Shown here in pieces: positions 33,901-35,892 of a stretch of 64,000 nt of DNA. This stretch comes from Escherichia coli. Lineage in GTDB: Bacteria; Pseudomonadota; Gammaproteobacteria; Enterobacterales; Enterobacteriaceae. A program made the position numbers. Within the stretch, counting starts at the first letter, position 1. Each line of letters begins with the position of its first letter. The stretch lies in the NCBI RefSeq assembly GCF_044647545.1, contig NZ_CP172818.1, one strand, 5' to 3'.

Positions 33901-35892
33901 CTGGCCAACCATTTTTCAGCGCCGTGGGTAATGCGGTGTCAACTTGTGCCGCGGGTGTTTGCTGGCTTAACGCCTGGCGGGTTTCATGCATAGGCGCACA
34001 CCCGGCTAGCATCAGTAACAGCGGAAAACAGGCGATGGCTGGATAAAAAGAATCACGATTCATGGGGGAATAATCAGGTAAGAAAAGGTGCGCGGAGATT
34101 ACCGTGTGTTGCGATATATTTTTTAGTTTCGCGTGGCAATACATCAGTGGCAATAAAACGACATATCCAGAAAAATATACACTAAGCGAATGATATCTTC
34201 CGATTTATCTTAATCGTTTATGAATAGCGGCAAAGGGCTTCGTTTTTTCCTATACTTATTCAGCACTCACAAATAAAGGAACGCCAATGAAAATTATACT
34301 CTGGGCTGTATTGATTATTTTCCTGATTGGGCTACTGGTGGTGACTGGCGTATTTAAGATGATATTTTAAAATTAATTAATGTCATCAGGTCCGAAAATA
34401 ACGAGAATATTTCAGTCTCTCATCCTGTTGCGCTCCTGTCATGTGCATTGCTTCATATAATCACTGGCGCAAGGAGCGCGCAGGGGGCGGCCAATCGCCG
34501 CCGCCCCCTGCACCCCCGGGCTCTGGCGAACAAAATCGCCGCTGCGCGGTGCCCTCGGCTTATCCCTTACGGCTACCGGGTCGGGCGCGAGGTAACATCC
34601 CTGTAAAACGCGCCCTCAGCCCACATCCATGTGGGCTGCCCCGGCCTTCAGGGAACGCCTCGGCAATTTTGACGCCACCAAACAACCGTGCGGCCTATTG
34701 ATAAAGAGCTAACACATTGTCAAAAAACATCACTATGGTTTTTTAGAGTTTATCGATATCAATTGCCTGAATAGCCCTTGCAATATCAGGGGAATTATTC
34801 AACATCCGAACATGCTGAAATAATTCTGTTGCTTCATCGTATTCTTTACGCAAATAACTCAACCACTGTTTAATCCGCGCTACGTGATATAACCCGGTAT
34901 CGCCCTGCTTTTCCAGACGGGTATATTTTTGCAGCAAAGCAACTACCTCCGGCCATGGCATTCGCGGTTCGTTATATTTTACCACCCGGCTCAGGTTGGG
35001 AATATTGAGCGCCCCGCGACCAATCATCACTGCGTCGCATCCGCTGATCGTCATGCATTGTTGCGCACTCTGCCAGTCCCAGATTTCACCGTTGGCAATC
35101 ACCGGAATATTCAGCCGCTGGCGAATCTCGCCAATCGCCTGCCAGTCAATATGCTCCGCGCGGTAACCCTGCTCTTTTGTCCGCCCATGTACTACCAGCT
35201 CCGTAGCGCCAGCCTGTTGCACCGCATCGGCGATTTCAAATTTCTTCTCACCGCTGTCCCAGCCCAGACGCACTTTTACGCTGACGGGCAAATGCGCCGG
35301 TACAGCTTCGCGCATCGCTTTTGCACCCTGATAGATGAGTTCAGGATCTTTGAGTAACGTCGCCCCACCGCCGCTACCGTTAACCGTTTTCGACGGGCAG
35401 CCGCAATTGAGATCCACGCCCCAGGAACCTAACTCGACCGCACGGGCGGCATTCTCTGCCAGCCATTGTGGGAACTGACCTAACAACTGCACGCGCACCA
35501 GCGTACCAGATGGTGTCCGGCTGGCGTTTTGTAGCTCAGGGCAAATGCGATGAAAGACTTTTACCGGCAGCAGTTGATCCACCACGCGGACAAACTCGGT
35601 GATGCACAGATCGTAGTCGTTAACTTCGGTCAGTAATTCCCGCACCAGAGAGTCAAGTACACCCTCCATCGGAGCCAGTAACACACGCATATCATCACCC
35701 GCAAAAAAATGAGGCGCTATGTTAGCGCCTATGGTCAGCGGATTAAAGGTCTGCAAAGAGGGATTGCTGCAAACTGCAATCCCTCTCTATGCTTGATGTA
35801 TGCCTGAGTTCGCTGCTCATTGCGTAATGCCCGGGAGCGAAAAAATAAGCGCTGATTTCTTAATGTGATCGGTAGCACGTTTTACGAATTAA

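What the first reader, a model, noticed from the sequence alone, without database searches (positions are those of the whole stretch)
34287..34370. 27-aa hydrophobic micro-protein divergent from mdtQ
A tiny ORF with an RBS encodes a single TM helix. Such proteins are commonly missed by ORF callers and often modulate membrane transporters or kinases.
Basis: seen in the sequence. Interest (0 to 1): 0.3.

Follow-up and report, generated by a model that had tools for sequence, protein, structure and literature searches.

The report
Known small membrane protein gene yohP
The 27-codon ORF is real, but it is the already annotated and experimentally studied E. coli gene yohP, a stationary-phase small inner-membrane protein, so the finding is correct but ordinary.

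Summary
Window 34287..34370 (+) is an ATG-started 27-codon ORF, MKIILWAVLIIFLIGLLVVTGVFKMIF. It has an AGGA Shine-Dalgarno 6 nt upstream and lies 223 bp from, and divergent to, mdtQ.

It is not new. The DNA is 100% identical to E. coli K-12 yohP (b4679). It passes the curated cut-offs of NCBIfam NF011345 (equivalog "small membrane protein YohP") and Pfam PF25659. It is annotated as yohP in RefSeq E. coli genomes.

My own checks support a real, selected gene:
- The ORF is exactly 27 codons in 95 species genomes (Enterobacteriaceae, several Burkholderiales, one Halomonas).
- pN/pS is about 0.11.
- It sits between mdtQ or yohF and dusC in most enteric loci.
- A sigma-S-type -10 box (C-TATACT) is conserved upstream.

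Published experiments on this sequence or its orthologue show:
- sigma-S- and stationary-phase-dependent expression;
- inner-membrane insertion via SRP with SecYEG or YidC, or via mRNA targeting;
- dimerisation that depends on Gly15;
- sublethal membrane depolarisation that triggers the phage-shock response, ppGpp accumulation, nucleoid condensation and "metabolic silencing".

Novelty: already known. Interest: low.

Seen in passing: an unannotated ~230-bp GC-rich structured repeat downstream of yohP, which lies in either orientation in different strains.

The parts
34250..34256 (+). Candidate sigma-S-type -10 promoter element: C at 34250 followed by TATACT at 34251-34256, 36 nt upstream of the ATG. 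The transcription start is inferred to lie about 7 nt downstream; it has not been mapped.
   Evidence: Read directly. A C-TAYACT element lies 35-50 nt upstream of the ATG in 72 of 94 distinct upstream regions from other species, and is always preceded by C. In Salmonella the yohP transcript (STnc1330) and YohP-3xFlag depend on sigma-S (PMC5437024). The sigma-70 consensus scan found no promoter on this strand.
34277..34280 (+). Shine-Dalgarno core AGGA (within AAGGAA, 34276-34281), 6 nt before the start codon.
   Evidence: Read directly. A purine-rich GGA/GGAG motif sits at the same place in nearly all homologous loci.
34287..34370 (+). yohP coding sequence: 27 codons plus TAA, encoding a small inner-membrane protein with one transmembrane helix. 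K2 and K24 flank the helix and G15 is the dimerisation residue.
   Evidence: - ORF.
- 100% DNA identity to K-12 b4679.
- NCBIfam NF011345: 67.3 bits against a cut-off of 58.
- Pfam PF25659: 50.6 bits against a cut-off of 27.
- 95 species carry an ORF of exactly 27 codons, with pN/pS 0.11.
- Present in 5,421 of 5,426 complete E. coli genomes.

Best explanation
The ORF is yohP, a known chromosomal gene of E. coli and its relatives.

Shown by sequence analysis here:
- It is a protein-coding gene under strong purifying selection.
- Its length is fixed at 27 codons.
- It has a canonical ribosome-binding site.
- It has a conserved sigma-S-type -10 box.

Shown by published experiments on the identical E. 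coli protein or its Salmonella orthologue:
- It is transcribed as a short mRNA in stationary phase, under nutrient or oxygen limitation.
- The U-rich mRNA can bind the membrane on its own.
- The peptide is inserted post-translationally into the inner membrane by SRP/FtsY with SecYEG or YidC, mostly N-out/C-in.
- It forms SDS-resistant dimers through Gly15.
- When produced it partly dissipates the membrane potential.

Proposed by those authors and adopted here as the likely physiological role:
- The sublethal depolarisation triggers the phage-shock response, (p)ppGpp accumulation, nucleoid condensation and lower protein synthesis.
- This puts stationary-phase cells into a protected, metabolically quiet state.
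For: Identity:
- 100% DNA identity to K-12 yohP.
- NCBIfam equivalog and Pfam YohP both above their curated cut-offs.
- Annotated as yohP in RefSeq genomes.
- Exact-sequence look-up returns the names "protein YohP" and "Uncharacterized membrane protein YohP".

Coding selection:
- 95 species genomes, 86 distinct DNA sequences, all exactly 27 codons.
- Entropy at codon positions 1/2/3 is 0.47/0.11/1.15.
- pN/pS is 0.11 in codons 16-27, which the search pattern did not constrain.
- L16, G21, I26 and F27 are invariant, and K24 is kept in 25 of 27 protein variants.

Context and promoter:
- mdtQ or yohF lies upstream and dusC downstream in most enteric loci.
- A C-TAYACT -10 box is conserved.

Literature:
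- Sigma-S- and growth-phase-dependent YohP-3xFlag in Salmonella (PMC5437024).
- Native SPA-tagged YohP rises in stationary phase, minimal medium and low oxygen (PMC12719787).
- Inner-membrane localisation, carbonate resistance, C-in/N-out topology, G15-dependent dimer (PMC7549839).
- SRP, SecYEG and YidC insertion (PMC7549839 abstract).
- mRNA membrane targeting favoured by U content (PMC10066597). The CDS here is 40.7% T.
- Depolarisation measured with DiBAC4(3), reduced protein synthesis, Psp induction, ppGpp (PMC12719787).
- Nucleoid condensation (PMC12542507).
Against: - The physiological model rests mainly on premature, plasmid-driven production in exponential phase. The authors list this as a limitation.
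- The yohP deletion has no growth phenotype under inducing conditions and only small proteome changes. It shows only increased sensitivity to ciprofloxacin and oxidative stress.
- Induction by SDS/EDTA or H2O2, reported earlier, could not be reproduced.
- Dimerisation and nucleoid condensation do not correlate strictly: K24E loses the dimer but keeps the effect.
- The promoter in this window is inferred from a motif and from Salmonella data. It has not been mapped.
- No intrinsic terminator was found downstream.
Confidence: 0.85

Rival explanations
1. YohP is a specific accessory subunit or regulator of a larger membrane protein (a transporter, efflux component or sensor kinase), as AcrZ, MgrB, MgtS and KdpF are. 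The neighbouring outer-membrane efflux gene mdtQ would be the obvious candidate system.
For: - Many characterised small membrane proteins work this way (introduction of PMC12719787).
- yohP is divergent from mdtQ in this window and in many enteric genomes.
- The very strong sequence conservation, with invariant G15, L16, G21, I26 and F27, is more than a generic hydrophobic helix would need.
Against: - No partner has been reported despite cross-linking, proteomics and fractionation studies.
- mdtQ is a pseudogene in K-12, where yohP is still expressed and active.
- In many genera yohF, not mdtQ, is the upstream neighbour, and the Burkholderiales homologues have neither neighbour.
- MdtQ is an outer-membrane protein while YohP is in the inner membrane.
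- The control protein YqjD, another dimerising single-span protein, does not depolarise, so the effect is specific to YohP without a known partner.
Confidence: 0.1
2. yohP is a type I toxin-antitoxin-like module. It would encode a small hydrophobic depolarising toxin (like TisB, Hok, Ibs, Ldr or ShoB) kept in check by an antisense or trans-acting RNA.
For: - The peptide is small, hydrophobic and C-in. It depolarises the membrane, condenses the nucleoid and slows growth, as type I toxins do. The authors draw this parallel themselves.
- One promoter-like site lies antisense across the 3' end of the ORF (minus strand, 34386 to 34359, 10 of 12 matches).
Against: - The antisense promoter-like site is at chance level: 1 found against 1.7 expected.
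- No Rfam antitoxin or sRNA family matches. There are only two sub-threshold hits, neither overlapping the ORF.
- Native YohP accumulates to high levels in stationary phase without killing cells, and the depolarisation is sublethal.
- The gene is single-copy, syntenic and core (5,421 of 5,426 genomes), unlike typical multi-copy or mobile type I loci.
- No plasmid copies were found (the low-complexity filter is a caveat).
Confidence: 0.04
3. The transcript acts mainly as a regulatory small RNA (it was first catalogued in Salmonella as the sRNA STnc1330), and the ORF is secondary or incidental.
For: The Salmonella orthologous transcript was originally listed as a non-coding sRNA, abundant and sigma-S dependent.
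Against: - Codon-position pattern, pN/pS of 0.11, a fixed 27-codon length across 86 distinct DNA sequences, and stops in the alternative frames all show selection on the protein.
- The protein has been detected in E. coli and Salmonella.
- A dual function is not excluded, but nothing supports one.
Confidence: 0.03

Closest known systems
YohP (E. coli K-12 b4679; NCBIfam NF011345; Pfam PF25659)
   Same: Everything tested matches. The DNA and protein sequences are identical, and so are the ribosome-binding site, the position between mdtQ and dusC, and the divergent orientation.
   Different: Nothing in the gene itself differs. Three single-base differences lie in the upstream spacer and one lies downstream near the end of dusC. 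In this strain mdtQ is an intact ORF (508 aa from the first start listed; 478 aa from the likely ATG at 34063), whereas it is a pseudogene in K-12.
YncL (31-aa sigma-S-dependent small membrane protein of E. coli and Salmonella)
   Same: Both are stress or stationary-phase small single-span proteins encoded on transcripts first catalogued as sRNAs. Both cause nucleoid condensation through sublethal depolarisation (PMC12542507 abstract; PMC5437024).
   Different: It is a different sequence family at a different locus. It was not compared here.
Type I toxins such as TisB, HokB, IbsC, LdrD and ShoB
   Same: They work alike: a small hydrophobic helix inserts into the inner membrane and lowers the membrane potential, giving dormancy-like states (discussed in PMC12719787).
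   Different: No antitoxin RNA was found. The effect is sublethal. yohP is a single-copy core gene with a sigma-S-type promoter and shows no sequence similarity to these toxins. It is not a member of that group.
Partner-binding small membrane proteins (AcrZ, MgrB, MgtS/MgtU, KdpF, CydX)
   Same: They share the size class, the single transmembrane helix, and their history of being missed by gene callers.
   Different: Those proteins act through a defined partner. No partner is known for YohP and its gene neighbourhood is not conserved outside the enterics.

Membership tests
YohP family (NCBIfam NF011345 equivalog; Pfam PF25659) | Profile-HMM score above the curated cut-off over the full length | tested here: met
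   NF011345 scores 67.3 bits against a cut-off of 58, residues 1-27 on profile 1-27. PF25659 scores 50.6 bits against a cut-off of 27.
YohP family (NCBIfam NF011345 equivalog; Pfam PF25659) | 27-residue protein with one hydrophobic helix flanked by Lys2 and Lys24, and Gly15 and Gly21 within the helix | tested here: met
   The sequence is MKIILWAVLIIFLIGLLVVTGVFKMIF with GRAVY 2.47. All 95 homologues have exactly 27 codons. G21 is invariant and K24 is kept in 25 of 27 protein variants. G15, W6 and M1 were fixed by my search pattern, so their invariance is not independent evidence.
YohP family (NCBIfam NF011345 equivalog; Pfam PF25659) | Orthologous genomic position: between mdtQ (or yohF) and dusC, convergent with dusC | tested here: met
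   The window has the same order as K-12: yohF, mdtQ, yohP, dusC, yohJK. The same neighbours occur in most enteric loci.
YohP family (NCBIfam NF011345 equivalog; Pfam PF25659) | Purifying selection on the reading frame, showing it is a real gene and not a chance ORF | tested here: met
   pN/pS is 0.11 in the pattern-unconstrained codons 16-27. Variation is concentrated at the third codon position.
YohP family (NCBIfam NF011345 equivalog; Pfam PF25659) | Sigma-S-dependent, stationary-phase expression | tested here: inconclusive
   A sigma-S-type -10 motif (C-TATACT, 34250-34256) is present and conserved in 72 of 94 upstream regions. Expression itself cannot be measured with these tools. It is published for Salmonella and E. 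coli.
YohP family (NCBIfam NF011345 equivalog; Pfam PF25659) | Inner-membrane insertion, dimerisation and a depolarising effect | not testable with these tools
   Published for the identical protein: PMC7549839, PMC12719787, PMC12542507.
Type I toxin-antitoxin systems (membrane-toxin class) | A cognate antisense or overlapping antitoxin RNA gene | tested here: not met
   The only antisense promoter-like site is at chance level (1 found, 1.7 expected). No Rfam family overlaps the ORF. Absence of an undescribed RNA cannot be proven from sequence alone.
Type I toxin-antitoxin systems (membrane-toxin class) | Lethal or strongly bacteriostatic toxin when derepressed, often multi-copy or on mobile DNA | tested here: not met
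   yohP is single-copy, chromosomal and present in 5,421 of 5,426 genomes, with no plasmid hit. The literature reports a sublethal effect and high native levels.
Partner-dependent small membrane regulators (AcrZ, MgrB or MgtS type) | A defined partner protein, often encoded nearby or co-regulated | tested here: not met
   The neighbours vary: mdtQ is a pseudogene in K-12, it is replaced by yohF as the upstream neighbour in many genera, and the context is unrelated in Burkholderiales. No partner is reported in the papers read.

The most novel reading that the evidence does not exclude
In Escherichia only, the yohP 3' region has lost the simple GC hairpin that follows the stop codon in other genera. 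Instead it carries a ~230-bp highly structured GC-rich repeat (window ~34462-34693), a sub-threshold relative of the TwoAYGGAY RNA motif, which lies in either orientation in different strains. The most novel reading not excluded is that this element forms part of the yohP (or dusC) 3' UTR and alters the stability, termination or membrane targeting of the yohP mRNA. That would give strain-to-strain differences in YohP dosage and so in stationary-phase depolarisation and tolerance.
Probability: 0.08. Interest if true: 0.35.

Novelty: already known. Interest (0 to 1): 0.07.

Why it matters
As a discovery it does not matter. yohP has been in the E. coli annotation since the 2008-2010 small-protein screens, and it is the main model for how bacteria insert very small membrane proteins.

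It is a useful positive control for the scan. A reader working from raw sequence correctly picked out a genuine 27-codon gene, the only ORF of its kind in 64 kb.

The biology behind it remains of current interest. The open questions are how a 27-residue peptide depolarises the membrane just enough to push cells into a tolerant, quiet state, and whether it needs a partner. Nothing in this window adds to those questions beyond the conservation data gathered here.

Tried and rejected
Tools that could not take the query:
- The search for homologous proteins and the search for related loci refuse a 27-aa query. The search of protein representatives and the look-up of encoding contigs need at least 30 aa, so they were not tried.
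- I replaced them with a degenerate DNA pattern for codons 1-15, scanned over genome contigs. That pattern fixes M1, W6 and G15 and forces hydrophobic codons at ten positions. Selection statistics were therefore recomputed on the unconstrained codons 16-27. The taxonomic range found is a lower bound; for example, no Klebsiella, Serratia or Yersinia hit, which may reflect sequence variants outside the pattern.
- About 24 pattern hits were unrelated longer ORFs or truncated matches and were discarded.

Searches that found nothing useful:
- The sigma-70 promoter and intrinsic-terminator scan found nothing useful on the yohP strand.
- Rfam gave only two sub-threshold hits, neither in the ORF: TwoAYGGAY on the minus strand downstream, and AgvB at E = 0.11, which I regard as chance.
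- tblastn against plasmids found nothing. The low-complexity filter may mask this very hydrophobic query.
- The original discovery papers (PMC2614699, PMC2798279, PMC3173172) are not held. They are cited only through the reference lists of papers I could read.
- The neighbourhoods of the Burkholderiales homologues were listed. They showed no obviously shared neighbour and were not pursued with Pfam.

Readings rejected: type I toxin, pure sRNA, and transporter or kinase modulator (see rival explanations).

Full report

Yes. The ORF listing reports an ORF at 34287..34370 on the + strand, starting with ATG and encoding 27 aa, MKIILWAVLIIFLIGLLVVTGVFKMIF.

- Reading the sequence, the stop is TAA at 34368-34370.
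- A Shine-Dalgarno core AGGA sits at 34277-34280, 6 nt before the ATG.
- The upstream gene mdtQ runs on the minus strand and starts at 34063.
- The peptide is extremely hydrophobic: GRAVY is 2.47 and the best 19-residue window scores 2.96. A lysine lies at each end (K2, K24).
- As a chance control I scanned both strands of the 64-kb window for ATG ORFs of 20-50 aa with GRAVY >= 2 and an SD core 4-14 nt upstream. This ORF is the only one, and 100 local shuffles gave none.

**2. What is it?**

It is yohP.

- The 701 bases around it differ from E. coli K-12 MG1655 at four positions, none within the ORF, the ribosome-binding site or the -10 box. The ORF is 100% identical to b4679, "putative membrane protein YohP", at 2228982..2229065.
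- The protein scores 67.3 bits on NCBIfam NF011345, an equivalog model named "small membrane protein YohP" with a cut-off of 58. It scores 50.6 bits on Pfam PF25659 "YohP", cut-off 27.
- An exact-sequence look-up returns the names "protein YohP" and "Uncharacterized membrane protein YohP".
- RefSeq annotates it as yohP in E. coli genomes. The promoter-plus-CDS segment is found in 5,421 of 5,426 complete genomes, at >= 99% identity in 5,354. It is single-copy and chromosomal.
- The gene order in the window is that of K-12: yohF, mdtQ, yohP, dusC, yohJ, yohK.

**3. Independent evidence that it is a selected protein-coding gene**

The protein-search tools refuse 27-aa queries. I therefore scanned one genome per species (GTDB set) with a degenerate DNA pattern for codons 1-15.

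- Of the 119 stretches hit, 95 carry an ORF of exactly 27 codons resembling YohP. These comprise 86 distinct DNA sequences and 27 distinct proteins.
- The genera include Escherichia, Salmonella, Citrobacter, Enterobacter, Cedecea, Buttiauxella, Kosakonia, Atlantibacter, Siccibacter, Lelliottia and others.
- Outside the enterics they include Noviherbaspirillum, Polaromonas, Variovorax, Achromobacter, Ramlibacter, Schauerella, Burkholderiaceae MAGs and one Halomonas. This agrees with the statement in PMC12719787 that homologues exist beyond the gamma-proteobacteria.
- Variation is concentrated at third codon positions: mean entropy is 0.47, 0.11 and 1.15 for positions 1, 2 and 3.
- The pattern constrains codons 1-15, so I recomputed on codons 16-27 only: pS is 0.68, pN is 0.076, and the ratio is 0.11.
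- In that unconstrained half, L16, G21, I26 and F27 are invariant, and K24 is kept in 25 of 27 variants.
- In most enteric loci the ORF lies downstream of mdtQ or yohF and convergent with dusC.

**4. Expression signals**

- The generic sigma-70 scan finds nothing on the yohP strand.
- The sequence C-TATACT at 34250-34256, 36 nt upstream of the ATG, has the form of a sigma-S -10 element with the characteristic upstream C.
- The same C-TAYACT element occurs 35-50 nt upstream of the ATG in 72 of 94 distinct upstream regions, and is always preceded by C. Most of the remaining enteric sequences carry close variants such as CTATGCT or CTACGCT.
- This fits the Salmonella data. The yohP orthologue lies inside the transcript first catalogued as the sRNA STnc1330, which is abundant and sigma-S dependent. 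YohP-3xFlag is made in large amounts in stationary phase and is almost undetectable in an rpoS mutant (PMC5437024).
- The promoter assignment in this window is therefore an inference from motif conservation plus orthologue data. It is not a mapped start.

**5. How it works**

The steps below are from the literature on the identical protein.

[quoted passage not shown] Induction by SDS/EDTA or H2O2, reported earlier, was not reproduced (PMC12719787).
- YohP fractionates with inner-membrane vesicles, is carbonate resistant and is mainly C-in/N-out. It forms SDS-resistant dimers that need Gly15 but not Gly21 (PMC7549839). K24E also abolishes the dimer (PMC12542507).
- Insertion is post-translational. 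It needs SRP and FtsY and uses either SecYEG or YidC (PMC7549839 abstract).
- The mRNA binds the membrane independently of translation. This is favoured by U content and by predicted stem-loops, and it makes insertion SRP-independent (PMC10066597). The CDS here is 40.7% T.
- Production of YohP raises DiBAC4(3) fluorescence, which indicates depolarisation. The control single-span dimer YqjD does not do this. YohP production also sensitises cells to CCCP and lowers global protein synthesis.
- It induces PspA/PspC, raises cardiolipin and (p)ppGpp, and condenses the nucleoid.
- The authors conclude that YohP causes non-lethal membrane damage that leads to "metabolic silencing". The yohP deletion is more sensitive to ciprofloxacin and oxidative stress.

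The weak points are:
- Most effects come from premature plasmid-driven expression.
- The deletion has little phenotype under inducing conditions.
- Dimerisation and nucleoid condensation are separable.

I put identity at essentially certain. I put the depolarisation/silencing model, as the physiological role, at roughly 0.6.

**6. Rivals**

No partner is known. mdtQ is a pseudogene in K-12 and is not the upstream neighbour in many genera. The Burkholderiales contexts are unrelated. The tight sequence conservation keeps this alive at about 0.1.
- *Type I toxin-antitoxin.* The action looks similar, but the only antisense promoter-like site is at chance level, no RNA family overlaps the ORF, the gene is core and single-copy, and the effect is sublethal.
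- *Pure sRNA.* The codon-level selection and the detection of the protein contradict this.

**7. Novelty and verdict**

The feature is already known. The specific functional hint has no support, and the gene is not unannotated. Interest is low.

**8. Things seen in passing**

- Downstream of yohP, at about 34462-34693, lies a GC-rich, strongly folding ~230-bp element (MFE -118 to -135 kcal/mol for 246 nt). It is repeated a median of 3 times per E. coli genome and carries no annotation.
- Another copy sits between aqpZ and lysO.
- In strain DETEC-P793, in E. coli E69, in E. whittamii and in Escherichia sp. E1V33, the copy in the yohP-dusC spacer lies in the opposite orientation.
- Copies differ by compensatory changes in the first hairpin.
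- On the minus strand the element gives sub-threshold matches to Rfam TwoAYGGAY: 30.9 and 28.4 bits against a gathering score of 43.
- Other genera lack the element. They have a 65-150-bp spacer with a GC hairpin right after the yohP stop codon.
- Some strains carry IS1 in this region.
- mdtQ is intact in this window.

Noticed in passing
window ~34462-34693 (between yohP and dusC): An unannotated ~230-bp GC-rich, strongly structured intergenic repeat. It has a median of 3 copies per E. coli genome across 5,425 genomes. Another copy lies between aqpZ and lysO (L121, L122). Copies show compensatory changes in the first hairpin (GGGGGCGGCC..GCCGCCGCCCCC against GGGGGAGGAC..GCCTCCTCCCCC). On the minus strand it gives a sub-threshold Rfam TwoAYGGAY (RF01731) match of 30.9 bits against a gathering score of 43, including an ATGGAT hairpin loop..
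   Followed up: partly
L123:2501-2725 (E. coli DETEC-P793); also L030, L056 and L096 downstream of yohP: The same repeat occupies the yohP-dusC spacer in the opposite orientation in some E. coli and Escherichia lineages, with different flanking spacer sequence. It therefore behaves like a mobile or invertible element (MITE-like), and the yohP 3' region has two haplotypes.
   Followed up: partly
yohP-dusC spacer in L004, L006, L045, L050 and other loci, compared with window 34371-34742: Other enteric genera have only 65-150 bp between yohP and dusC, with a GC-rich hairpin directly after the yohP stop codon (a likely terminator). The Escherichia spacer is 372 bp or more and has no intrinsic terminator by the consensus scan.
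   Followed up: partly
window 32627-34063 (minus strand): mdtQ is an intact ORF in this strain (508 aa from the first start listed; 478 aa from the likely ATG at 34063), whereas it is annotated as a pseudogene in K-12 MG1655. The window therefore comes from a non-K-12 E. coli or a close relative.
   Followed up: no
H1-H15 (for example NZ_CM180508.1 2297028-2298564): Several E. coli strains carry an IS1 insertion within the mdtQ-yohP-dusC segment, so the match is split into two pieces about 770 bp further apart. The exact insertion point was not examined.
   Followed up: no
L008, L025, L048, L055, L063, L077, L080, L081, L094, L110, L118 (Burkholderiales and one unclassified Proteobacteria MAG) and L106 (Halomonas): YohP homologues of exactly 27 codons, with the MK..LW...IF.IGL..V.G..K.IF framework, occur in beta-proteobacteria and one Halomonas. 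Their gene contexts are unrelated and high in GC, which suggests either old ancestry or horizontal spread of this tiny gene.
   Followed up: partly
window 34393-34453 (+): A weak Rfam hit to AgvB (anti-GcvB sRNA), 22.9 bits against a gathering score of 56, E = 0.11. I judge it a chance match.
   Followed up: no
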